Under the pieces are notes generated by a model, which searched no databases, had not been told where the DNA came from, and saw nothing but the letters and a program-made list of their open reading frames with translations. Of a stretch of DNA of 42,272 bases, positions 1-17,196 are shown piece by piece. This DNA is from a virus (taxonomy: Duplodnaviria > Heunggongvirae > Uroviricota > Caudoviricetes), in IMG/VR virus record IMGVR_UViG_2529292726_000021; one strand, written 5' to 3'. Made by a program: the position numbers and the translations under genes. Numbering within the stretch: position 1 is the stretch's first letter; every line of letters starts with the position of its first letter.

Positions 1-1149
1 AAAGATATCGTTTACTTCCACAGCCTGTTCTGGCCTGCCATGCTGGAAGGCAGCAACTTCCGCAAGCCGACCAACCTGTTTGTTCATGGCTATGTGACGG
101 TGAACGGCGCGAAGATGTCCAAGTCTCGCGGCACCTTTATTAAAGCCAGCACCTGGCTGAATCATTTTGACGCCGACAGCCTGCGTTACTACTACACTGC
201 GAAACTCTCTTCGCGCATTGATGATATCGATCTCAATCTGGAAGATTTCGTTCAGCGTGTGAATGCCGATATCGTTAACAAAGTGGTTAACCTGGCCTCC
301 CGTAATGCAGGCTTTATCAACAAGCGTTTTGACGGCGTGCTGGCAAGCGAACTGGCTGACCCGCAACTGTACAAAACCTTTACTGATGCCGCTGAAGTGA
401 TTGGCGAAGCATGGGAAAGCCGCGAATTTGGCAAAGCTATCCGTGAAATCATGGCACTGGCTGACCTGGCTAACCGCTATGTTGATGAACAGGCTCCGTG
501 GGTGGTGGCGAAGCAGGAAGGACGCGATGCCGATCTGCAGGCGATTTGCTCTATGGGCATTAACCTGTTCCGCGTGCTGATGACGTACCTGAAACCGGTA
601 CTGCCGAAACTGACTGAACGTGCAGAAGCATTCCTGAATACAGAACTGACCTGGGATGGTATCCAGCAACCGCTGCTGGGCCATAAAGTGAATCCGTTCA
701 AGGCACTGTATAACCGTATCGATATGAAACAGGTGGAAGCACTGGTGGAAGCATCCAAAGAAGAAGTGAAAGCCACAGCTGCACCGGTAACTGGCCCACT
801 GGCTGACGACCCGATTCAGGAAACCATCACCTTTGACGACTTCGCCAAAGTTGACCTGCGTGTGGCGCTGATTGAAAACGCGGAGTTTGTCGAAGGTTCT
901 GACAAACTGCTGCGCCTGACGCTGGATCTCGGTGGTGAAAAACGTAATGTCTTCTCAGGCATTCGTTCCGCTTATCCAGATCCACAGGCACTGATTGGTC
1001 GTCACACCATTATGGTGGCTAACCTGGCACCGCGTAAAATGCGCTTCGGTATCTCCGAAGGCATGGTGATGGCTGCTGGCCCTGGCGGAAAAGATATCTT
1101 CCTGTTAAGCCCGGATGCTGGTGCTAAACCAGGCCACCAGGTTAAGTAA
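1..1149 (+). CDS. metG: methionyl-tRNA synthetase, C-terminal part (5' end outside window)
   Basis: Frame open from position 1 to TAA at 1147-1149; translation (KMSKSRGTF ... AKPGHQVK) recognised as enterobacterial MetG C-terminal region. Confidence 0.95.
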
Positions 1150-1167
1150 TTAAACAACCTCTCTTCG

Positions 1168-1198
1168 CAATGCCCGGCAACACGCCGGGCATTTTCAT
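1168..1198 (+). terminator. rho-independent terminator of metG
   Basis: GC hairpin AATGCCCGGC-aacac-GCCGGGCATT followed by TTTTCAT, 20 nt after the metG stop. Confidence 0.7.
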
Positions 1199-1233
1199 AT
1201 AGACACAATCCCTCCTGATTTACACAAGCCCTA

Positions 1234-1302
1234 AAACAATTTGTTTTCTACCTTTTGTTGATTGAGATAATAAGCCACATAAGAAAACAACTTGTTTTGG
1301 AG
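1234..1302 (+). promoter_or_regulatory. early promoter/leader module, copy 1
   Basis: Palindrome AAAACAAtTTGTTTTCTACC (1234-1253), -10-like GATAAT (1266-1271), palindrome AAGAAAACAAcTTGTTTTGG (1281-1298), then GGAG and ATG at 1311. Confidence 0.5.
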
Positions 1303-1310
1303 TAGTTGAA

Positions 1311-1610
1311 ATGTTGAACATTACCCAAGCCTACCAGGTGGCATTGATCAGTTCATCTCATACATCAGAGGAAGATGCTCGCCGATTCATGATCGCAAGC
1401 AATGAGCTGGATTGGGTTTCACAAATTGATGGCGGTTGTATTGTTCACGCCGGGTTACAGGATGATGTCTGGAAAGACGACTTGCGTCGATATGGTATAT
1501 CCGAAGGCGCGATTGCTAACATTCAGAAAGTACTTGATGTAGGCTTTGACTCTGTACATTTTGATTGTGGAGCACCAGTCGTTGAAGGGCTTGAGTGCTG
1601 GAACTGGTAA
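1311..1610 (+). CDS. hypothetical small early protein (99 aa)
   Basis: ATG start 9 nt after GGAG; preceded by the conserved module; no recognisable motif. Confidence 0.6.
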   Translation: MLNITQAYQVALISSSHTSEEDARRFMIASNELDWVSQIDGGCIVHAGLQDDVWKDDLRRYGISEGAIANIQKVLDVGFDSVHFDCGAPVVEGLECWNW

Positions 1611-1655
1611 CAGATATTAAAGCATTGGTAGTTTGTTTTTAGGATTATCAAAGAA

Positions 1656-2390
1656 ATGAAAAAGTTGAAAAGTTTAGAAATCCCTGGGACTGGTTATAAA
1701 TTCTTTATGGACAACGCGGAGTGTGCGCCTAACGCGTTGGAAAAAATACAAAGTCTTATCAACAGCCTTACTGAAGAAGCGAAAGAACTGAAGAGCGAGG
1801 CGACAAAGGACAATACAGCTAAAATCCAATGCTTAAATCTCGTTTCTTATTGTTTATATCAAGTGTCCAAAACACTGATTAAAGGCAATATCTATTACGA
1901 CGATGAAGACACCTCGACACCTGAAGAAAAAGATAGCGATGAAGAACTCTATGAAGATATCTCTACCAGTGCGGGTCACGCTGCCTTCGATGCTATGGGT
2001 GAATCGTCAGGCATCAGATCGTTTGTTGAACAGAACAATTCGACAATAATGATTGAGTACTGTGAACAAACAAGCTCCAAGGCCATACATGTTCTTCACG
2101 ATGTTGCTGCAGGGGTTCGCTGTGAGGCTGAAGCGGTCAGAAAGGATGTATTTGGTGCAGACAGTAATACCGTGAAAGCGTTCATCAACAGTGCTCTGCT
2201 AAATTCTTACTCAACCCTTATCGTCAATGCGGCACTATGCGCAAATTCAGGTGAAGAACACATTGTCATAACTGAAACCAAACATGAGCATCAACAGTCA
2301 CCAACCATAGAAGAGGTAACTGCATTGGCTATCAAACAGGCGAGTGAAATTAGTGATGAAATTCTCTCTCTGCTAAACAAAACTATGTAA
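1656..2390 (+). CDS. hypothetical acidic protein (244 aa)
   Basis: ATG with AAAGAA upstream; D/E-rich stretches such as YYDDEDTSTPEEKDSDEELYEDIS; no catalytic motif recognised. Confidence 0.6.
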   Translation: MKKLKSLEIPGTGYKFFMDNAECAPNALEKIQSLINSLTEEAKELKSEATKDNTAKIQCLNLVSYCLYQVSKTLIKGNIYYDDEDTSTPEEKDSDEELYEDISTSAGHAAFDAMGESSGIRSFVEQNNSTIMIEYCEQTSSKAIHVLHDVAAGVRCEAEAVRKDVFGADSNTVKAFINSALLNSYSTLIVNAALCANSGEEHIVITETKHEHQQSPTIEEVTALAIKQASEISDEILSLLNKTM

Positions 2391-2559
2391 AACATTGATA
2401 ATGGCGGTCACAATTTGATTCTTTTCTATAAGAATCCGTTGATCGCCACTACTCCCCTTCCATACCTGCAATCACATCCTTAAATATCAATAGGTTATAG
2501 TTATTTATACCAATAAGAAAACAACTGAATAACAGATCAACGAAACGTCAACGCTTTCA

Positions 2560-3340
2560 CCCGATTTGGTCTAAAAAATTGACGTTTTCACACATCACTT
2601 CTTATACCCGTAATTCTACGCAGCAGATAGCGCCACAGCGTCCAATTTTCACCACAGACGACCCAACACACTACCAACAAAAACACACGCTCAAAATCGC
2701 TCCCGTTGCGTTACATAACCATATAAACAACTTATTTTCAGGCATAACAAAACAACTAAATAACACACATGCCATTCCCAAAAACAACCAACCTCTTTAT
2801 GGCAGGCTACCGAAAAGACCCACCTCTTCTCCCCAGGCTACCGGACAACCAACCTAACTTTCACAGGCAATCCGAAAACATTCATACGCGCGATACCCAC
2901 GACACGCCATTCCCCAAACAGCGAAGAAACACCAGAATCACTGAAACCCCAACGAAGCCTGTAACCGCAAGGATTCTCTCAATCCCAAAAGACACGAAAC
3001 ATAACAATCACGGGAAACGCCATTACCCAATACACGAATAACTACAAAAGCCTTTCACACACTCCAGACAAACAACTCAAACACAATAACGAAAGGAATC
3101 GCCCACCTGCCATTACTCCATACACGGAGAAGAACAATCACCAAAACGACGAGAACACCCCATAGAAGAACCACCGCAAAACGAACGAAACCACATACAC
3201 CGACAGAGAAAACAACACACCCAATTCACCAACAGAAATAGTCGCCGTATAGAACGTTCTGGAAGGAGTGAGCATTAACGCCTATAGAGAGGTTGAGACA
3301 GATAAAACACAACATGTATAGCGAAGAAGCCAGGTATGTA
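2560..3340 (+). other. A+C-rich, G/T-poor strand-asymmetric tract; candidate non-coding transcript or protein-binding region
   Basis: Sampled 60-nt lines are about 80% A+C on the plus strand; degenerate repeats GCCATT(C/A)CCCAA at about 2772, 2908, 3020, 3110; half copy of the early motif (AAGAAAACAAC, 2515-2525) just upstream. Confidence 0.35.
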
Positions 3341-3353
3341 TAAGTGGGGAGGG

Positions 3354-3378
3354 AAGGAGGGGTGTCGCCTCCTTTTTC
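3354..3378 (+). terminator. candidate terminator hairpin at end of the A+C tract
   Basis: AAGGAGG-ggtgtcg-CCTCCTT followed by a T run; preceded by G-run GGGGAGGGAAGGAGGGG. Confidence 0.4.
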
Positions 3379-3440
3379 GTATTTATTCAACTCCTGATTT
3401 TATCCCCCCGTAACACCCCTACGGTCAGCCTTCGGTCCAT

Positions 3441-3580
3441 ACAGGGAAAAGGTTGCATCCCGCTACAGAAACGGCTGGGTTGCCTTCGGGGAACGGCTGG
3501 AGGTTTTCAGGGAAACGGTCGAGTTGCCTGTGTGGATTTCGGGAAAAGGCTCGATGCCGGTTCAGGAACGGTGGCGTACC
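3441..3580. repeat. iteron-like direct repeat array 1 (six ~21-23 bp imperfect units)
   Basis: Units GGGAAAAGGTTG, AGAAACGGCTGG, GGGGAACGGCTGG, GGGAAACGGTCG, GGGAAAAGGCTCG, GGAACGGTGGCG spaced about two helical turns apart. Confidence 0.6.
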
Positions 3581-3888
3581 GGTATAGCGAGAGGGAGAGT
3601 TGCGGCTACCCACCTGTAATGTGCGGGAAGAAGAGAGGCGCTCACGTGCAGGCGGACTTGCTTACCGCTGGATTCCCTCTGAATGCCAGCTACAGCGTAA
3701 TTGTGCCAGACAGCCAACGGGTCACAATCGATTTCAGTAGGTTTTCGGGGAGAGGATTATTCTGCCCCCCAGCCACTTTCGGCCACTAAATCAGAATAAT
3801 GTAAAAAGTGTACTCGGTACTGAACCTGAAAACTCACTGCCAAAACCACATTCACCGGAATAAAATCCTTTTTCGCCTGTGTGTTATT

Positions 3889-3927
3889 GCGATAATAACA
3901 CCATCAAGAAAACATGTTGTTTAAGGA
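3889..3927 (+). promoter_or_regulatory. early promoter/leader module, copy
   Basis: GCGATAATAACACCATC followed by AAGAAAACAtgTTGTTTAAGGA; ATG at 3935. Confidence 0.5.
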
Positions 3928-3934
3928 TTGCTTT

Positions 3935-4264
3935 ATGTTTGCAAATATCGACATCAACCAAATCAAGAAAATGACTCAAAAAGAGTTTGACCAGTTTTAT
4001 GAGCTGGAAGGTTGGTCTTCCACTCTGATTAATTCAAGATGGGTGCTGGAACTGATGACTCGTGATGACGCACCTGCTTTGATGATCAGCGACCTGGGTG
4101 AAGATGCTGACTTTATGGATATGAGCGAATTTTGTGTGGACACATACAACCGCAGCCAGAAGTACTACTTCACATGCGATAGCGAAAATGACGTGATTTC
4201 TAAGGTCTATCTTCACCTCGTCCAGCATTGGGACGTTCAGGACTTCCTTGAGATGTTCGCGTAA
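3935..4264 (+). CDS. hypothetical small acidic protein (109 aa)
   Basis: Start moved from track ATG 3914 (inside the motif) to ATG 3935, which has AAGGA 8 nt upstream. Confidence 0.55.
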   Translation: MFANIDINQIKKMTQKEFDQFYELEGWSSTLINSRWVLELMTRDDAPALMISDLGEDADFMDMSEFCVDTYNRSQKYYFTCDSENDVISKVYLHLVQHWDVQDFLEMFA

Positions 4265-4273
4265 ACTCAACCA

Positions 4274-4300
4274 AAGCCAGCATTGCTGGCTTAATTTCTC
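4274..4300 (+). terminator. candidate terminator
   Basis: AAGCCAGCA-tt-GCTGGCTT hairpin followed by AATTTCTCT. Confidence 0.45.
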
Positions 4301-4373
4301 TATAGCCGCAGGGAAGAACCTGCATATAGCTCATGCACCTGATCAATATGCTTTGTAGCCGTTTTCTTACTGG

Positions 4374-4412
4374 TATTATTTACGCCATTGAGAAAACAAG
4401 TTGTTTACGGAG
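4374..4412 (+). promoter_or_regulatory. early promoter/leader module, copy
   Basis: GAGAAAACAAGTTGTTTACGGAG immediately before ATG 4418. Confidence 0.5.
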
Positions 4413-4417
4413 TTGTG

Positions 4418-4729
4418 ATGAAAAAATCATTGGTTCTTGGTCTGGACAAAGACCAGAAGAGAAAAGAGAAGCCTGCGCTGGTTGCTCAATTAACTTTGCT
4501 GGACATCGTTGCCAATGGAACCTCTATTCGTCTGTTCCGTGAAACAGCGGTGTCTTTCGATAAAAACACCTTTACTCGTTATGTAATGAATGTTCGTCGC
4601 CAGCGTGGAAAAGGCTGGGTGGCATTTCAAAGAATGTGGCCGGAACATCAGCTCGAACTGGCTTTGATGGAAGTTAACCGCGTGGCCCAGCAAGAGATTC
4701 AGAGAGCATCAGTGATGGCAATAGCCTGA
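4418..4729 (+). CDS. hypothetical small basic protein (103 aa)
   Basis: Track ORF starts at a TTG inside the motif (4388); ATG at 4418 with ACGGAG upstream preferred. Confidence 0.55.
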   Translation: MKKSLVLGLDKDQKRKEKPALVAQLTLLDIVANGTSIRLFRETAVSFDKNTFTRYVMNVRRQRGKGWVAFQRMWPEHQLELALMEVNRVAQQEIQRASVMAIA

Positions 4730-4765
4730 TAATGTGCAAGTGGTAATTAGTCGACCGTACGACAG

Positions 4766-4792
4766 CCCCGCCATCCTTACGGGGTTTTTTTG
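4766..4792 (+). terminator. rho-independent terminator
   Basis: CCCCG-ccatcctta-CGGGG followed by TTTTTTT. Confidence 0.75.
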
Positions 4793-4855
4793 TATTGTAA
4801 GTACATACTTACGATCATAGAATATAAAAATAACCAATACACTACGGAGAGTGAA

Positions 4856-5251
4856 ATGACCGTTAAACGCGAAAAACTGACAGTTGATGTTTACTATGCC
4901 TCTGAAACCGCCGAAGGTAAGAATGTGGCAAAAATCACCGTTGTTACGTACAACACCGAAACTGGTGCCGAAGTACAGGCCAGTACGATCGTGCGTAAAT
5001 GTGATGCCTCCGGCGGCGAGTACGCGACTCAATACCAGTCCATTCTCGATGCAACTGACCCGCTGCTGCTGAAAATCGAGAACTACTTCCGCCAGGTTGA
5101 TGAAGAGGTGTTTGAAACCATGATGAATATGGTTAATTCCGTATTCACCTCCAGCCTGAACACCAGCACCACCTGGATTGGTCAGTACGGCCTGCGCATT
5201 ACCTCTGGCATTCCTGCTGACACCTTAATCCCTGAAAGCGTATTCGCTTAA
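4856..5251 (+). CDS. hypothetical protein (131 aa)
   Basis: ATG 4856 with ACGGAGAG upstream; track ORF start 4790 lies in the terminator region and is unlikely. Confidence 0.6.
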   Translation: MTVKREKLTVDVYYASETAEGKNVAKITVVTYNTETGAEVQASTIVRKCDASGGEYATQYQSILDATDPLLLKIENYFRQVDEEVFETMMNMVNSVFTSSLNTSTTWIGQYGLRITSGIPADTLIPESVFA

Positions 5252-5260
5252 TCCTCTTTA

Positions 5261-5288
5261 AATGGCGCGTAAACCGCGCCATTTTCTT
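5261..5288 (+). terminator. rho-independent terminator
   Basis: AATGGCGCG-taaa-CCGCGCCATT followed by TTTCTT. Confidence 0.75.
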
Positions 5289-5296
5289 ATACCCGA

Positions 5297-5359
5297 TAAC
5301 AATTTGTTTTCTACCTTATCTACACTGCGATAATTACAACAACAAGAAAACAAGAGGAA
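5297..5359 (+). promoter_or_regulatory. early promoter/leader module, copy
   Basis: ATAACAAtTTGTTTTCTACC (5297-5315), GATAAT (5329-5334), AAGAAAACAAGAGG (5345-5358); ATG 5365. Confidence 0.5.
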
Positions 5360-5364
5360 AGCAG

Positions 5365-5559
5365 ATGAAAACTATTACTCAAGTACAGCAAATCTGGGCG
5401 CAGCTAGCAAATGAGCCTGTGGATAACAATCAGCAGCTTGAGCGTGCATTTCACCATTTTGAAGCCGGTGACAGCATCATTGACGTGTGGGTGTGGATCG
5501 ACGGGCTGTGTCCAGATATCACCGTTGCACAGTTGCAGGAGATGGGGCACGATGACTGA
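5365..5559 (+). CDS. hypothetical small protein (64 aa)
   Basis: ATG with AGAGGAAAG upstream. Confidence 0.5.
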   Translation: MKTITQVQQIWAQLANEPVDNNQQLERAFHHFEAGDSIIDVWVWIDGLCPDITVAQLQEMGHDD

Positions 5560-5637
5560 TCTCACCATTACCCCAAAAGCACAAAATGTATTCCTTGAAT
5601 CATGGCTGGATTTGCCGCATTAAGTGAGAGTATTACG

Positions 5638-5901
5638 ATGGCAAAATTGACCAGAGCGCAGGAGCATGACCTGCGACGCGCAATTTATGATCTTGAAAGG
5701 GGGATCGCGTATCTGCGACACCCAAAAACTGCGGTTTGCTATCGCCACGATTACCCTGCAACTACCACATCGGCATATTCATCGCACGACGGGAAGACAT
5801 CACTTTCCCCTGTTTGCATCGACTACGGCTCGAATATCGTCGGTCTTTATCATGCGCTAGAAACGTTGAAAGAGTTCGTTGCAGCACATCGAAAGCAATG
5901 A
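5638..5901 (+). CDS. hypothetical small protein (87 aa)
   Basis: Internal ATG 5638 preceded by GTGAGAG preferred over track start 5602, which lacks an SD; start uncertain. Confidence 0.45.
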   Translation: MAKLTRAQEHDLRRAIYDLERGIAYLRHPKTAVCYRHDYPATTTSAYSSHDGKTSLSPVCIDYGSNIVGLYHALETLKEFVAAHRKQ

Positions 5902-6030
5902 TATATAGGCTGCCAATGCTGGTGGCCTTAAATGACCATCCTGTTCCACGCAGGCTAAAAACACCAACCTCTTACCTCTAGGCAACCGACAAACCCACCT
6001 GTTCCCGTCCGGCTACCGCAACTTTCCACT

Positions 6031-6090
6031 TTGACGCCTTATTCGTACAACGATAATTAACACCAACAAGAAAACAATTTGTTATTTACG
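6031..6090 (+). promoter_or_regulatory. early promoter/leader module, copy with sigma70-like -35
   Basis: TTGACG (6031-6036), 17 bp, TAATTA within CGATAATTAACACCAAC, then AAGAAAACAAtTTGTTATTTACG (6068-6090); ATG 6105. Confidence 0.55.
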
Positions 6091-6104
6091 ATAAGGAATT
6101 AATC

Positions 6105-6587
6105 ATGAATTTTATCGCTACTGTAAACGCACCCGCACATGGCAATATCGCTGTAACGTTCTCTGACATTGAAAAACGAGTACTTGGTGCATGGCGCGAC
6201 AATGAGACGGTAGAACTGTCAGCACAAGAAAAATGCAATATTGCACGCGACATCATTGGCAATCGTCGTTACTCGCGGGTATTTGAGAAAGCGTATGTGG
6301 TAAATTCTGGATTCGGAACGTTCGTCTTTCCGGTGCGCTCCGGGCGATTCTGCCAGTCCAAGCTGATTGAGTTCGCTACGCAGATTTCTTTCTGGATTAA
6401 AACTCAATCGTCGTTCAAATTTTCCGACGATGAAGCAGTATCGCAGGGGATGCGGATCGCCAACAATGCGATTAAATGCAAAAACATTACGTATACCGCT
6501 GGCGTTGATACATGGAAACTGTTTTGCGCTAACTTTATGCTGAATGTATACGCAAGCAACCGCATCCACATCCTTGATGGCGTGTAA
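6105..6587 (+). CDS. hypothetical protein (160 aa)
   Basis: ATG with AAGGAA 7 nt upstream; no motif recognised. Confidence 0.6.
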   Translation: MNFIATVNAPAHGNIAVTFSDIEKRVLGAWRDNETVELSAQEKCNIARDIIGNRRYSRVFEKAYVVNSGFGTFVFPVRSGRFCQSKLIEFATQISFWIKTQSSFKFSDDEAVSQGMRIANNAIKCKNITYTAGVDTWKLFCANFMLNVYASNRIHILDGV

Positions 6588-6596
6588 CTGAGAAGA

Positions 6597-6618
6597 GGGC
6601 CAGAAACGGCCCTTTATC
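6597..6618 (+). terminator. candidate terminator
   Basis: GGGCC-agaaac-GGCCC followed by TTTATCT. Confidence 0.45.
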
Positions 6619-6636
6619 TATAGCCACCAGCTGCCG

Positions 6637-6761
6637 CAGGGAAATTTTCAGAAGCGGCGAGGAACGTATTCATGAGCCGACGGGGGAACGGCCAGGATTT
6701 TTTCGGGAAACGGCTGCATTCGCCTTTGTGTAGAAAAAACATCGGGAAGCTGGTGGAATCC
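6637..6761. repeat. iteron-like direct repeat array 2
   Basis: GGGGGAACGGCCAGG, GGGAAACGGCTGCATTCGCC, GGGAAGCTGGTGGAATCC share the GGRAAMGGYTG core of array 1. Confidence 0.55.
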
Positions 6762-6842
6762 AACCAGCGGTTGTCGGACAGGTGAGCGAGGAAAATTATG
6801 ATGACTTTCGTCGCCTGAGACATCCAGATTTCTTTCGTAGCG

Positions 6843-6897
6843 TAATCACATATGTGATTAAGTGGTGTGATTATGTGAAAAATCACGCGCACATAAT
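6843..6897. promoter_or_regulatory. cluster of palindromic operator-like sites
   Basis: Perfect 18-bp palindrome TAATCACATATGTGATTA (6843-6860) followed by further TGTGATTA / CACATAAT half-sites. Confidence 0.45.
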
Positions 6898-7134
6898 ACG
6901 CGAGCGGATACGGAGCAAAACAAAATGCCGATCCGCGCCGACAAATAAACGCGGATCATAAAGCAAGACTAAAAGCCAATAATTAACCATACTCTATAGC
7001 GCAATATAACGCGTTTTAAGCGCGTTAATGTGTTAAGTAATGGGTATATACTGGTAAGGATATAAAAGCTCGTCTGTGGCGTTATTTTGGCGCTTATTTT
7101 TATGTTGTTGGAGTGAGTTAAAGACAATAAAAAA

Positions 7135-7214
7135 GCGCCACTATTGGCGCGTTATGGTGGAAGTATTGGAAACGAAAAAAGCGCCCATAGTGGGCGCTAT
7201 TGTTTTTATTTTTC
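7135..7214. terminator. tandem hairpins; bidirectional terminator
   Basis: GCGCCA-ctat-TGGCGC (7135-7150) and GCGCCCA-tag-TGGGCGC (7181-7197) flanked by A runs on one side and T runs on the other. Confidence 0.65.
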
Positions 7215-8655: not shown

Positions 8656-9174
8656 TTAAAACGGAAGGATTCGTTCAACCCAATCGAAGAAAATAAGTAT
8701 TTTTCTACCGTCTTCCAACTTAAGTGTGACTAGACAGGCGTCAACGCCATCTGACGTTCCCTCAATTTCGCGACCGTCTGCCATGTAGACCCTTATAGAT
8801 TTGCCGTTTTGGTAAGCCTGACGACATATCTTAAAAAAGTCACGACGTGATGGCTGATTAACCATCTGTTCATTGTTTAGCGTTAGTCGACCTGTGAATG
8901 AAGTGTCAACCTCTTCTATGCCCGACTCAATTGTGCTAATGCGCTCAAGAGGGAGCCTTATACGATTTGTGTTGCTAAGCGGATCTGGTGTGAGGTTCAG
9001 CTTATTTCTTGCGCTCAATAGCCCGTAGACATACATGCAAAACACTTGGCCGTCTTCGAGAGTGACTCTTACAGGAAATTTTGCACTCCGCCAGAAGAGC
9101 AAGGTGCGCTCAGCATGTTCGTAGTCTCGCGGCCAGACTTCAGCCGGTATGCCGTAGGTGATGTCTTTAACCAT
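8656..9174 (-). CDS. hypothetical protein (172 aa) with internal repeat
   Basis: ATG with AAGG upstream; two related segments (VRVTLEDGQVFCMYVY and VTLKLEDGRKILIFFDWV). Confidence 0.55.
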   Translation of the reverse strand: MVKDITYGIPAEVWPRDYEHAERTLLFWRSAKFPVRVTLEDGQVFCMYVYGLLSARNKLNLTPDPLSNTNRIRLPLERISTIESGIEEVDTSFTGRLTLNNEQMVNQPSRRDFFKICRQAYQNGKSIRVYMADGREIEGTSDGVDACLVTLKLEDGRKILIFFDWVERILPF

Positions 9175-11923: not shown

Positions 11924-12202
11924 TTACGGCAACCTGCTCAGTATTTCCTCTAAATCTTTTTTTGTCATATTGGAGTTTTCATAGATGCGCATGATTTTCT
12001 CACGCGTCTTAGCGGAAACCCCAACGGCAGATGTGACTTTGTCAAATTCAGCCATAGTCATCGTCTCCAGAATGGCATTGATAACTTCAGCCTTAGACAT
12101 CTTGATTTTTTTCTCTTTGAGTTTTATTTGGAATTTTCCAAGTTTTTCATTGGCCTTATCAGACAATGCCACTTGGCAATAAGTTGTTTTCTTTTCGCTC
12201 AT
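11924..12202 (-). CDS. hypothetical small Lys-rich protein (92 aa), possibly DNA-binding
   Basis: ATG 2 nt after the helicase stop (translational coupling); 5' coding region contains AAGAAAACAACTTATTG, resembling the early motif. Confidence 0.5.
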   Translation of the reverse strand: MSEKKTTYCQVALSDKANEKLGKFQIKLKEKKIKMSKAEVINAILETMTMAEFDKVTSAVGVSAKTREKIMRIYENSNMTKKDLEEILSRLP

Positions 12203-17134: not shown

Positions 17135-17196
17135 CAGAAAACAAGTTGGTTAGCATACGCAGTAAACAAGTTGTTTTAGAGCGCATGGACGCGCTC
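17135..17196 (+). promoter_or_regulatory. tandem early-type motifs plus hairpin upstream of terminase genes
   Basis: CAGAAAACAAGTTGGTTAG (17135-17153), GTAAACAAGTTGTTTTAGAG (17162-17181), then GAGCGC-atggac-GCGCTC hairpin. Confidence 0.5.

What the first reader, a model, noticed from the sequence alone, without database searches (positions are those of the whole stretch)
1311..6587. Battery of individually transcribed small ORFs, several strongly acidic, as candidate host-takeover or anti-defence genes
Each ORF has its own promoter module and most have their own terminator, an organisation typical of early phage genes that inactivate host functions. The 244-aa protein (1656-2390) and the 109-aa protein (3935-4264) are rich in Asp/Glu, as are DNA-mimic anti-restriction proteins.
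Basis: partly seen in the sequence, partly recalled or inferred. Interest (0 to 1): 0.55.

Follow-up and report, generated by a model that had tools for sequence, protein, structure and literature searches.

The report
Operator-controlled small-gene cassettes in phage-plasmid
This stretch is the variable accessory-gene region of a common SSU5-type E. coli phage-plasmid: eight real small genes of unknown function, most with the same promoter-plus-operator module that recurs across the whole element, split by a conserved 1.5-kb non-coding block; nothing tested here shows that they are anti-defence proteins.

Summary
The window is an SSU5-type phage-plasmid of E. coli, 97% identical to pEP91B-1 and phage Cyrano. 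The ORFs are at the stated coordinates and are real genes (pN/pS 0.08-0.4).

**Observation.** Five of the eight ORFs (A, C, D, F, H) carry one stereotyped module. It consists of a -10-like hexamer, then 11-12 nt, then the palindrome GAAAACAAnTTGTTTTC, then a ribosome-binding site. The window has 11 such sites against 0.44 expected. The module is not special to this battery: about 20 copies occur across the plasmid, including ahead of terS, the helicase gene, nrdB and parA. It holds an A/C-rich tract and direct repeats spaced 22 or 31 nt apart.

**Gene content.**
- A, D, E and H are core genes in the Salmonella and Klebsiella relatives.
- B, C, F and G are lineage-specific cargo in three variable slots.
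- Three of four insertion/deletion junctions fall inside the modules, as with PeSL cassettes of T4-type phages.

**Acidity.** It is real for C, F and A (pI 4.2-4.3) and moderate for B (pI 4.64).

**Function.** No search found a link to any known anti-defence or DNA-mimic family, and the AlphaFold models were unusable. B is transcribed in the lysogen, so it behaves like a moron rather than a lytic-only early gene. Function remains open.

The parts
1232..1299 (+). Promoter/operator module of ORF A. One palindrome lies at 1232-1248, ending 17 nt before the -10 hexamer GATAAT (1266-1271). A second lies at 1283-1299, starting 11 nt after the -10. The two centres are 51 bp apart.
   Evidence: (families D6, D7, I16). 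The same 51-bp pair occurs at 5295/5346 and in L063 at 4811/4862.
1311..1610 (+). ORF A, 99 aa, pI 4.32. It belongs to DUF5983 (PF19419) and is a core gene of SSU5-type elements.
   Evidence: E 6.9e-11, 42.8 bits against a cutoff of 27; 43-45% identity in SSU5 and pJN2-26; pN/pS 0.12.
1656..2390 (+). ORF B, 244 aa, pI 4.64, with an acidic stretch at residues 80-103 and mostly helical prediction. It is rare cargo in variable slot 1, has no operator, and is expressed in the lysogen.
   Evidence: one cluster among 5.8 billion; only distant relative is P0016, 20% identity, in the same slot after DUF5983; 29 E. coli plasmids; CYRAN_102 at 57 counts, 6x background; pN/pS 0.08.
2391..3934 (.). Conserved non-coding element, present in SSU5, in Klebsiella and in distant relatives. 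Its ORFs are not conserved.
   Evidence: no credible CDS; stop codons in the orthologous frames; no Rfam family.
2502..2525 (+). Promoter-like -10 (TATTTA) followed by a half-operator (GAAAACAAC) with no gene behind it.
   Evidence: (family D2).
2723..2739 (.). Operator copy inside the non-coding element. It is conserved, with its left flank, in SSU5, pJN2-26 and PhiR41_1.
2580..3250 (+). A/C-rich, G-poor tract (A+C 68-79%, G 7-19% per 100 nt). The composition is conserved across genera although the sequence is not.
   Evidence: strongest negative GC skew in the whole element.
2787..2873 (+). Three copies of the 26-nt core ACCnACCT-N9-AGGCWAMCG at 30-31 nt spacing (first array).
   Evidence: D1, D3; good copies occur only here and at 5935-6018 in the whole 108-kb element.
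3351..3383 (+). Conserved G+C hairpin followed by a T-run (terminator-like).
   Evidence: (-18.5 kcal/mol).
3444..3585 (+). Six direct repeats GRAAMGGYYG with start-to-start spacing 22/22/22/31/22 nt (iteron-like array 1).
   Evidence: D5, D9, D12; spacing conserved in the E. coli and Salmonella types; 43/22/22/22 in Klebsiella; no RNA covariation.
3891..3924 (+). Module of ORF C: -10 GATAAT at 3891-3896 and operator at 3908-3924. The core TTATTGCGATAATAACACCA is identical in the four elements aligned here (window, SSU5, pJN2-26, PhiR41_1) and has exact matches in 55 viral contigs.
3935..4264 (+). ORF C, 109 aa, pI 4.17, net charge -13. Cargo of slot 2, present in essentially all E. coli SSU5-type plasmids and absent from the Salmonella and Klebsiella relatives examined.
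   Evidence: 241 plasmids.
4274..4292 (+). Hairpin after C with a weak U-tail.
4353..4408 (+). Module of ORF D: TTGTAG, TATTAT (4374-4379), operator 4392-4408.
   Evidence: (D4).
4418..4729 (+). ORF D, 103 aa, pI 10.5, core gene.
4766..4791 (+). Intrinsic terminator after D (CCCCG...CGGGG followed by T7).
4795..4823 (+). Ordinary sigma-70-like promoter of E (TTGTAA-17-TAGAAT), without the palindrome.
4856..5251 (+). ORF E, 131 aa, pI 4.48, core gene.
5261..5287 (+). Intrinsic terminator after E.
   Evidence: -15.2 kcal/mol.
5295..5353 (+). Module of ORF F: operator 5295-5311, 17 nt, GATAAT 5329-5334, half-operator 5346-5353. This is the junction of cassette exchange relative to Cyrano.
   Evidence: (D7).
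5365..5559 (+). ORF F, 64 aa, pI 4.22, rare cargo of slot 3.
   Evidence: (phrog_24588).
5552..5623 (+). A 23-codon ORF whose first 22 codons (5552-5617) match the start of the 93-aa gene that normally occupies slot 3 (SSU5_115/CYRAN_110 family). It is left over from a replacement event.
5602..5901 (+). ORF G, 99 aa (87 aa if it starts at 5638), basic, rare cargo, probably co-transcribed with F.
5935..6018 (+). Second array of the ACCnACCT-N9-AGGCWAMCG repeats (three copies, 28-30 nt spacing).
6031..6086 (+). Module of ORF H: TTGACG 6031-6036, GATAAT 6052-6057, operator 6070-6086.
   Evidence: (D4, D8).
6105..6587 (+). ORF H, 160 aa, pI 9.2. It is the most conserved core gene here (67-82% identity in the Salmonella- and Klebsiella-type relatives; 33% in L063) and is bracketed by the two repeat families.
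6597..6616 (+). Hairpin terminator after H.
   Evidence: -16.7 kcal/mol.
6638..6720 (+). Second cluster of GRAAMGG repeats (6684 and 6706 are 22 nt apart, with degenerate copies upstream). It is almost invariant in SSU5 and pJN2-26.
   Evidence: (D5, D11).
8656..9174 (-). Context: a full-length FljA-family protein (PF03614), one candidate for the factor that recognises the shared module.
   Evidence: E 1.3e-68; the role of FljA is taken from PMC2652032.
17137..17178 (+). Context: two copies of the same palindrome ahead of the terminase small-subunit gene. They show that the regulon reaches beyond the finding.

Best explanation
The stretch is the hyperplastic accessory-gene region at the end of the long rightward gene block of an SSU5-type phage-plasmid.

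**Layout.** The backbone order is A, slot 1 (B), non-coding element, slot 2 (C), D, E, slot 3 (F, G), H.

**Cassettes.** Most genes are self-contained cassettes. Each has a host-type -10 (GATAAT or TATTAT), a 17-bp palindrome GAAAACAAnTTGTTTTC, a ribosome-binding site, a small ORF and a hairpin terminator.

**Regulation (inferred).** The palindrome lies 11-12 nt after the -10, which is roughly +5 to +21 of the transcript. In other promoters it ends 17 nt before the -10 and so overlaps the -35. In a few promoters both copies are present, 51 bp apart. A dimeric DNA-binding repressor encoded by the element most likely occupies these sites in the plasmid (lysogenic) state. That would shut off about 20 promoters across the element, including those of the terminase, helicase and nrdB genes. 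On induction or fresh infection the cassettes would then be read by host RNA polymerase as an early class.

**Cassette exchange (shown by comparison).** The repeated modules also serve as short homology patches. Through them cassettes are inserted, deleted and replaced between relatives.

**Protein functions (unknown).** A, D, E and H are core genes of the whole SSU5 group. B, C, F and G are lineage-specific cargo. B lacks the operator and is expressed from the plasmid state like a moron. Anti-defence or host-takeover roles are a reasonable prior for the cargo genes, above all the very acidic C and F, but nothing here shows them.
For: - **Identity of the element:**
- **Motif enrichment:** 11 sites against 0.44 expected in the window. 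Cyrano has 20 sites, 8 of them within the 5.3 kb of this region.
- **Geometry:** the distances to the -10 and to the ATG are fixed, and the paired sites are 51 bp apart.
- **Conservation of sites:** the sites sit at orthologous promoters in SSU5, pJN2-26, PhiR41_1 and the distant contig L063, while the flanking sequence diverges. The 20-nt promoter core is identical in all four elements of that alignment (window, SSU5, pJN2-26, PhiR41_1) and has exact matches in 55 viral contigs.
- **Expression:** most operator-bearing genes (parA is an exception) are near background in the LF82 lysogen, whereas operator-less B is at 57 counts (PMC9928086 S1 Table).
- **Core versus cargo:**
- **Junctions:** three of four insertion/deletion junctions against Cyrano and PhiR41_1 lie inside the modules. 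The Cyrano 108-109 cassette is bracketed by a 21-bp repeat of the module, and the extra ORF of PhiR41_1 joins at the operator.
- **Replacement:** slot 3 keeps a remnant of the replaced gene.
- **Real genes:**
Against: - No transcription start sites or binding data exist, and the regulator is not identified. No good operator lies next to the annotated repressor CYRAN_45.
- The generic promoter and terminator scans show no enrichment.
- parA carries a site yet is expressed in the lysogen.
- Sites that overlap the -35 of promoters with a poor -35 could equally be activator sites.
- In transcripts the palindrome could act as RNA.
- The junctions of B do not lie in a module.
- The RNA-seq covers lysogens under stress and is not an infection time course, so 'early' is an inference.
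Confidence: 0.55

Rival explanations
1. The small proteins are early host-takeover or anti-defence effectors, and B and C are DNA mimics that block restriction or other DNA-binding defences.
For: - C (pI 4.17, net -13 over 109 aa), F and A are among the most acidic proteins of the element.
- B, C, F and G sit in variable slots of a conserved backbone, which is where phages usually keep counter-defence cargo.
- The promoters are host-type and silent in the lysogen.
- A published DefenseFinder screen found almost no known anti-defence genes in the SSU5 group, so unknown ones may exist (10.1101/2025.09.12.675607).
Against: - There is no match to any anti-defence, ArdA, Ocr or other family.
- The structure models are unusable.
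- B is only moderately acidic, is expressed in lysogeny and has no operator.
- Half of the ORFs are core genes and three are basic.
Confidence: 0.2
2. B is a moron, meaning cargo expressed from the resident plasmid that benefits the host or the element (superinfection exclusion, defence or fitness). It may work together with the upstream DUF5983 protein A.
For: - CYRAN_102 (the B orthologue) is listed among genes expressed 6x above local background in the lysogen, while A reads 7 counts.
- B has no operator.
- B is present in only 29 of about 240 E. coli relatives.
- A B-like protein at 20% identity follows DUF5983 in the distant contig L063.
- Elsewhere DUF5983 genes sit directly after the cbtA toxin gene (PMC10790755, PMC13294457).
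Against: - No promoter for B was identified.
- The only PADLOC hit is insignificant (E 0.012).
- There is no phenotype data.
- B rises further under stress, as the lytic genes do.
Confidence: 0.3
3. The conserved basic proteins H and/or D are DNA-binding components that act on the two repeat arrays. The non-coding element would then be a second (lytic) origin or a copy-control or regulatory nucleoprotein site. On this view the region is replication/regulatory machinery and not host takeover.
For: - Six GRAAMGG repeats are spaced at 22 or 31 nt (whole helical turns), and this spacing is conserved across genera while the spacers vary.
- RNAalifold finds no covariation, which argues against a structured RNA.
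- A second cluster follows H.
- A second repeat family occurs only ahead of the A/C-rich tract and ahead of H. This gives two parallel layouts.
- H is the most conserved protein of the region and is basic.
- The RepA iterons are different sequences.
Against: - H and D match no DNA-binding family or solved structure.
- Cumulative GC skew gives no origin signal.
- The spacing is not kept in the distant contig L063.
- The count of the short motif alone is only modestly above chance (7 against 2.4).
Confidence: 0.25
4. The shared palindrome works as RNA. It would be a 5'-UTR element next to the ribosome-binding site, bound by the FljA-family protein encoded at 8656-9174. That protein would repress translation or destabilise the mRNAs, as FljA does for fliC.
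For: - In most copies the motif lies in the predicted 5' UTR, 10-25 nt before the start codon.
- A full-length FljA-family gene is conserved nearby in all relatives.
- FljA blocks fliC mRNA translation (PMC2652032).
Against: - Several well-conserved copies lie upstream of the -10, where they would not be transcribed from that promoter.
- The RNA stem would be short and A-U rich, and its outer positions often do not pair.
- The E. coli fliC 5' UTR has no such palindrome.
- Perfect dyad symmetry with a fixed 51-bp pairing is typical of DNA operators.
Confidence: 0.12

Closest known systems
PeSL (promoter-early stem-loop) regulatory cassettes in hyperplastic regions of T4-type phages (PMC2839356, PMC4122927)
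   Same: Small, mostly orphan ORFs are each framed by a repeated composite motif made of a sigma-70-type promoter and a stem-loop terminator. They cluster in a variable region between conserved genes. Insertions, deletions and replacements between close relatives have their junctions in the repeated motifs.
   Different: The host element is a temperate siphovirus that lives as a plasmid and not a virulent T4-type myovirus. The module carries a 17-bp palindromic operator that also controls core genes across the whole element. There is no sequence similarity to PeSLs. Mini-circle formation and promoter or terminator activity were not tested.
Morons of lambdoid prophages (own knowledge: Juhala et al. 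2000; Hendrix)
   Same: B is an extra gene that is absent from most relatives and is transcribed from the resident prophage or plasmid.
   Different: No flanking promoter was identified for B, and its hairpin lacks a U-tract. The other cassettes are silent in the lysogen and so are not morons in the expression sense.
Phage P1 C1 repressor with operators scattered over the genome (own knowledge: Lobocka et al. 2004)
   Same: It is also a phage-plasmid in which one operator sequence recurs at many dispersed promoters of lytic functions, so that one protein could hold the whole element silent.
   Different: The P1 operator is asymmetric (ATTGCTCTAATAAATTT), whereas this one is a perfect dyad. No C1 homologue was looked for or found in the window, and the binding protein is unknown.
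DNA-mimic anti-restriction proteins Ocr and ArdA (own knowledge)
   Same: They are small, acidic, early-expressed proteins of mobile elements. The charge density of C (-0.12 per residue) is within the range of small DNA mimics such as Ugi.
   Different: There is no sequence or profile similarity. The charge density of B is much lower than that of Ocr or ArdA. The fold could not be assessed.
Iteron arrays of plasmid and phage origins, such as P1 oriR/incA and P4 ori/crr (own knowledge)
   Same: Short direct repeats are spaced at whole helical turns. They occur in two separated clusters, one of them next to a conserved basic protein gene.
   Different: No initiator homology, no demonstrated AT-rich unwinding element and no replication data. 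The known RepA iterons of the element lie elsewhere and have a different sequence.
YeeW/DUF5983 proteins of CP4-44-type islands (PMC10790755, PMC13294457)
   Same: A is a significant member of PF19419.
   Different: Here it is not next to cbtA/cbeA. It is followed by the variable slot 1. The family has no known function.

Membership tests
DNA-mimic anti-restriction proteins (Ocr, ArdA and similar) | Sequence or profile membership in a known mimic family | tested here: not met
   B and C have no Pfam, PHROG-function, NCBIfam, PADLOC or PDB match.
DNA-mimic anti-restriction proteins (Ocr, ArdA and similar) | Very high negative charge density | tested here: inconclusive
   C has pI 4.17 and -0.12 per residue (top ~1-2% of the element). 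B has pI 4.64 and -0.078 per residue, which is unremarkable.
DNA-mimic anti-restriction proteins (Ocr, ArdA and similar) | A fold that displays carboxylates in a B-DNA-like pattern | tested here: inconclusive
   AlphaFold2 gave pLDDT 44.8 for C and 38.6 for B. No fold search was run on such models.
DNA-mimic anti-restriction proteins (Ocr, ArdA and similar) | Relief of restriction or defence in vivo | not testable with these tools
   This needs expression assays.
PeSL-type mobile regulatory cassettes | A repeated composite promoter and stem-loop motif flanking small ORFs | tested here: met
   Repeat families D2, D4, D7 and D8. Hairpins follow C, D, E, G and H. In several relatives the operator directly follows a terminator hairpin.
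PeSL-type mobile regulatory cassettes | Location in a variable region rich in orphan genes between conserved genes | tested here: met
   Three variable slots lie between the core genes A, D, E and H.
PeSL-type mobile regulatory cassettes | Insertion/deletion junctions between relatives lie in the motifs | tested here: met
   Three of four junctions do so.
PeSL-type mobile regulatory cassettes | Homology to T4-type PeSL sequence, or residence in a T4-type phage | tested here: not met
   The element is an SSU5-type siphovirus plasmid. The motif sequence is its own, so this is an analogue and not a member.
PeSL-type mobile regulatory cassettes | Demonstrated promoter and terminator activity, and mini-circles | not testable with these tools
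   This is experimental work.
Moron (for B) | Expressed from the prophage state and absent from close relatives | tested here: met
   CYRAN_102 is at 6x local background. B is in 29 of about 240 E. coli relatives.
Moron (for B) | Its own promoter and terminator flanking the gene | tested here: inconclusive
   No module or consensus promoter lies in the 45 nt after A. The hairpin after B lacks a U-tract.
Dispersed-operator repressor regulon (P1 C1-like logic) | One operator sequence recurring at many promoters of the element, far above chance | tested here: met
Dispersed-operator repressor regulon (P1 C1-like logic) | An identified repressor that binds the operator | not tested
   The candidates (CYRAN_45, the FljA-like protein, small HTH proteins) were not discriminated.
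DUF5983 (PF19419), for A | Score above the Pfam gathering threshold | tested here: met
   42.8 bits against 27, covering 88 of the 90 model positions.
Iteron-type origin or control locus (for 3444-3585 and 6638-6720) | Three or more direct repeats at helical-turn spacing, conserved in relatives | tested here: met
   (not kept in L063).
Iteron-type origin or control locus (for 3444-3585 and 6638-6720) | A cognate initiator or binding protein, and replication activity | not testable with these tools
   H and D have no informative homology. GC skew is uninformative.
Structured non-coding RNA (for 3250-3800) | An Rfam match or compensatory base changes | tested here: not met
   No Rfam hit. The covariation term is -0.36 kcal/mol.

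The most novel reading that the evidence does not exclude
The region may be a control centre and not a toolbox of effectors. On this reading the conserved basic protein H (perhaps with D) binds the two parallel repeat arrays. An operator-controlled promoter inside the non-coding element would transcribe the 600-nt G-poor A/C-rich tract. That transcription (by opening the DNA or by an R-loop-like intermediate) would fire a second, lytic origin of replication, or set the copy number when the plasmid-wide repressor is lifted. This would be an undescribed origin and control architecture for a clinically widespread phage-plasmid group.
Probability: 0.12. Interest if true: 0.7.

Novelty: new variant of a known kind. 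Interest (0 to 1): 0.4.

Why it matters
SSU5-type phage-plasmids (pHCM2 of S. Typhi, pLF82/Cyrano and many Klebsiella and Shigella plasmids) are common in clinical isolates and carry resistance genes. Even so, their lysis-lysogeny control, their lytic origin and their counter-defences are essentially unknown. A published screen found almost no known anti-defence genes in them.

The palindromic operator gives a concrete handle. A ~20-promoter regulon can be tested with one binding assay and a few reporter fusions.

The three variable slots define a short list of cargo genes (C, F, B, G and their replacements in relatives) to screen for anti-defence or exclusion activity.

The conserved non-coding element, which current annotations fill with spurious ORFs, is a candidate cis-acting site. 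If none of this holds up, the finding is simply an ordinary block of hypothetical phage genes.

Tried and rejected
**Searches that gave nothing**
- Rfam at gathering and at E-value thresholds: nothing in the window or in the gap.
- RNAalifold on eight diverse copies of the repeat region: weak energy and almost no covariation, so a structured RNA was dropped.
- The ORFs in the gap (2579-2857, 2769-3041, 3532-3789; annotated as CYRAN_103/104 in Cyrano) have stop codons in the orthologous frames of SSU5 and Klebsiella. They were rejected as genes.
- An exhaustive protein search for B returned only fragments plus one 20%-identical relative. C has only near-identical relatives.
- PDB sequence and profile searches for B, C, D, E and H returned only chance-level hits. 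The multicystatin hit for C (E 1.2e-4) has no stretch that passes on its own and is treated as spurious.
- Per-member Pfam scans of the H and D alignments gave nothing.

**Attempts that failed or were inconclusive**
- My last homologue search used a concatenated D+E+H query and returned only one hit. That was a wasted call, and it left no deep alignment for structure prediction of the core proteins.
- The AlphaFold2 models of C and B were too poor to use, so no fold searches were run.
- The preprint on SSU5-type heteroresistance could not be read.
- An alignment for A failed on a stop codon in one locus.

**Ideas tested and not supported**
- Cumulative GC skew of the whole element rises monotonically with gene orientation and gives no origin signal.
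- I tested whether the FljA-family neighbour could explain the palindrome by looking at the E. coli fliC 5' UTR. The palindrome is not there.
- A literature search for the operator sequence found nothing relevant.

Full report
**What the window is.** The first ORF (40-1149) is the 3' end of a methionyl-tRNA synthetase gene. The whole 1150-6700 stretch matches only plasmids of about 105-120 kb: 245 E. coli plasmids and no chromosome. The best match is pEP91B-1 at 97.3%. It also matches phage-plasmid genomes such as Escherichia phage Cyrano (pLF82), with weaker matches to Klebsiella relatives and Salmonella phage SSU5. The rest of the window carries a UvsW-like helicase, ParB-like genes, terminase, capsid and tail genes in Cyrano's order. 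The finding therefore lies in an SSU5-type phage-plasmid, directly after a captured host apbC-metG segment.

**Checking the observation.** All eight ORFs are present at the stated places and are annotated as hypothetical CDS in relatives.
- They are real genes. Comparison with the most divergent ungapped alleles gives pN/pS of 0.12 (A), 0.08 (B), 0.13 (C) and 0.3-0.4 (D, E, H). G shows four synonymous and no non-synonymous changes.
- Acidity is real but uneven. C has pI 4.17, F 4.22, A 4.32, E 4.48 and B 4.64. D, G and H are basic.
- Against the element's own 123 ORFs, C is in the most acidic ~1% and B only at the 11th percentile.
Repeat families of 23-73 nt precede A, C, D, F and H. When aligned they show a -10-like GATAAT or TATTAT, 11-12 nt, the palindrome GAAAACAAnTTGTTTTC, and then the ribosome-binding site and ATG.
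- The palindrome occurs 11 times in the window with at most 3 mismatches, against 0.44 expected. No shuffle gave more than 2.
- E instead has a plain TTGTAA-17-TAGAAT promoter. B and G have none that I can recognise.
- The generic promoter and terminator scans are not enriched over shuffles. The argument rests on the conserved repeated module.
- Hairpins of -12 to -17 kcal/mol sit right after the stop codons of C, D, E, G and H. The hairpin after B has no U-tract.

**The module is plasmid-wide.** In the full Cyrano genome the palindrome occurs 20 times. Eight of these fall in the 5.3 kb of this region. The others lie ahead of terS (two copies), parA, the replicative helicase, cobT, nrdB, tciA and other genes. 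The same sites sit at orthologous promoters in SSU5, Klebsiella pJN2-26 and PhiR41_1 and in a much more distant SSU5-like contig, L063.

There are two configurations. In one, the palindrome starts 11-12 nt after the -10. In the other, it ends 17 nt before the -10. At A, at F and in L063 both are present with a fixed 51-bp offset. Perfect dyad symmetry, promoter-proximal positions and paired sites about five helical turns apart are the usual signature of a dimeric repressor. That is my inference, and no binding protein has been identified.

Published RNA-seq of the LF82 lysogen fits this reading. Most operator-bearing genes are near background: terS 7, helicase 21, cobT 8, nrdB 13, A 7, C 13, D 12 and H 25 normalised counts. 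Operator-less B reads 57 and is listed by the authors as expressed 6x above local background (PMC9928086). parA carries a site yet is expressed, which is an exception.

**Core genes and cargo.** tblastn against the syntenic regions shows orthologues in Salmonella, Klebsiella and L063 for four genes. Identities are 32-49% for A, 37-76% for D, 32-61% for E and 33-82% for H.
- B is found only in a subset of E. coli elements, 29 plasmids in all.
- C is in essentially all E. coli ones, 241 plasmids, but not in the other genera.
- F and G are rare.
- The backbone order is A, slot 1, non-coding element, slot 2, D, E, slot 3, H. Different small ORFs fill the slots in each lineage.
- B has a single cluster among 5.8 billion. 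An exhaustive search added one 20%-identical, collinear 241-aa protein. That protein is encoded in the same slot, right after a DUF5983 gene, in L063. The A-B pairing may therefore be old.

**Cassette exchange.** Pairwise comparison locates the junctions.
- The 108-109 cassette of Cyrano is inserted within the F-type module and is bracketed by a 21-bp repeat of it.
- PhiR41_1 has an extra 72-aa ORF plus a copy of the D-type promoter. The junction is at the operator ahead of C.
- F is inserted between the left half-operator and the ATG of the gene that normally fills slot 3. The first 22 codons of that gene survive at 5552-5617.
- Only the junctions of B lie outside a module.

This is the behaviour described for PeSL cassettes in the hyperplastic regions of T4-type phages (PMC2839356, PMC4122927).

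**Protein function.** Nothing informative was found. A belongs to DUF5983, a family that elsewhere follows the cbtA toxin gene and has no known role. All eight proteins hit only 'unknown function' PHROGs or nothing at all. There are no significant PADLOC or NCBIfam hits and no PDB relatives by sequence or profile. The AlphaFold2 models of C (six near-identical sequences) and of B (single sequence) reached pLDDT 44.8 and 38.6. The DNA-mimic fold test is therefore inconclusive, and I ran no fold searches on these models. An independent DefenseFinder screen reported almost no known anti-defence systems in SSU5-group elements. That leaves room for unknown ones but is not evidence for these genes.

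**The non-coding element (2391-3934).** It is present in SSU5, pJN2-26 and L063 and in 43 of the 44 distinct full-length upstream sequences taken from the viral-contig hits. The ORFs annotated inside it are not conserved, because stop codons interrupt the orthologous frames. In order it contains:
- a promoter-like -10 with a half-operator;
- a conserved operator at 2723;
- three 30-nt-spaced repeats;
- an A/C-rich, G-poor tract of about 650 nt, whose composition is conserved although its sequence is not;
- a conserved hairpin with a T-run;
- six GRAAMGGYYG repeats spaced 22/22/22/31/22 nt.

That spacing is kept in the E. coli and Salmonella types, and variants have lost exactly one 22-nt unit. 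The Klebsiella type has 43/22/22/22. Rfam finds nothing, and the consensus fold has practically no covariation support. I therefore read these repeats as protein-binding DNA sites.

Both repeat families recur around H. The 30-nt family lies just upstream of the H promoter, and these two arrays are its only good copies in 108 kb. The GRAAMGG family lies just after the H terminator, in a block that is almost invariant across three genera. The iterons of RepA are different and lie elsewhere. This is compatible with H, or another protein, acting on both arrays, for example at a second origin or a control locus. GC skew gives no origin signal, and H and D show no DNA-binding homology.

**Verdict.** The anti-defence and DNA-mimic interpretation has no direct support. 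It is weakest for B, which is moderately acidic and expressed in lysogeny. It remains a fair hypothesis for C and F. The most useful new leads are the operator and the conserved non-coding element.

Noticed in passing
window 40-1149; L001 2282-6000: The phage-plasmid carries a full-length metG (methionyl-tRNA synthetase) next to a divergent apbC/mrp gene and a HumD/UmuD-like gene. The first two look like a captured host chromosomal segment. SSU5 has no such segment in the stretch upstream of its A orthologue.
   Followed up: partly
window 2391-3934: A conserved 1.5-kb non-coding element lies in the middle of the finding. It has an A/C-rich G-poor tract, a hairpin and direct repeats spaced 22 or 31 nt apart. 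Public annotations place small ORFs here (CYRAN_103/104, SSU5_108-110), at least some of which look spurious: the window's own gap ORFs, which include those annotated as CYRAN_103/104, have stop codons in the orthologous frames.
   Followed up: partly
window 6588-7205: A second conserved non-coding block (79% column identity across three genera) lies between the convergent genes. It has more GRAAMGG repeats, followed by two A-run/hairpin/T-run structures that look like bidirectional terminators.
   Followed up: partly
window 5552-5623: A 23-codon ORF is left over from the start of the 93-aa acidic gene that fills this slot in SSU5, pJN2-26 and Cyrano. The start of CYRAN_110 is probably annotated 23 codons too far upstream, across the operator.
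   Followed up: yes
window 8656-9174 (- strand): A full-length FljA-family protein ('repressor of phase-1 flagellin', PF03614, E 1.3e-68) is conserved in all relatives. FljA is reported to block translation of fliC mRNA. What it does in a phage-plasmid is unknown.
   Followed up: partly
window 17137-17178: Two copies of the same palindrome, 25 bp apart, sit about 40 nt ahead of the terminase small-subunit gene. The packaging and structural operon may therefore share the regulator with the small cassettes.
   Followed up: partly
L002 148-630 and 1726-2250 (Cyrano 60.1-62.3 kb): The repA gene is flanked on both sides by arrays of CTATAGTGGWT iterons at 21-22 nt spacing, a classical iteron replicon. 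It serves as a useful contrast to the different repeats in the finding.
   Followed up: yes
L063 4887-8726: A distant SSU5-like contig has DUF4942, two small ORFs, DUF5983 and a B-like protein in a row. DUF4942 and DUF5983 also both occur in Cyrano (CYRAN_90 and CYRAN_101). From memory they also co-occur in CP4-44-type chromosomal islands next to cbtA/cbeA.
   Followed up: no
window 11924-12202 (- strand) and 12175-12191: A 92-aa ORF downstream of the UvsW-like helicase gene on the minus strand (CYRAN_117) is expressed 12x above background in the LF82 lysogen. A 3-mismatch copy of the palindrome lies within its first codons.
   Followed up: no
SSU5-type E. coli plasmid NZ_CP070135.1 (hit H2): One close relative has an IS200C insertion inside this region. 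Coverage of the 5.5-kb query is at least 80% in only 28 of 245 matching plasmids, which shows how variable the region is.
   Followed up: no
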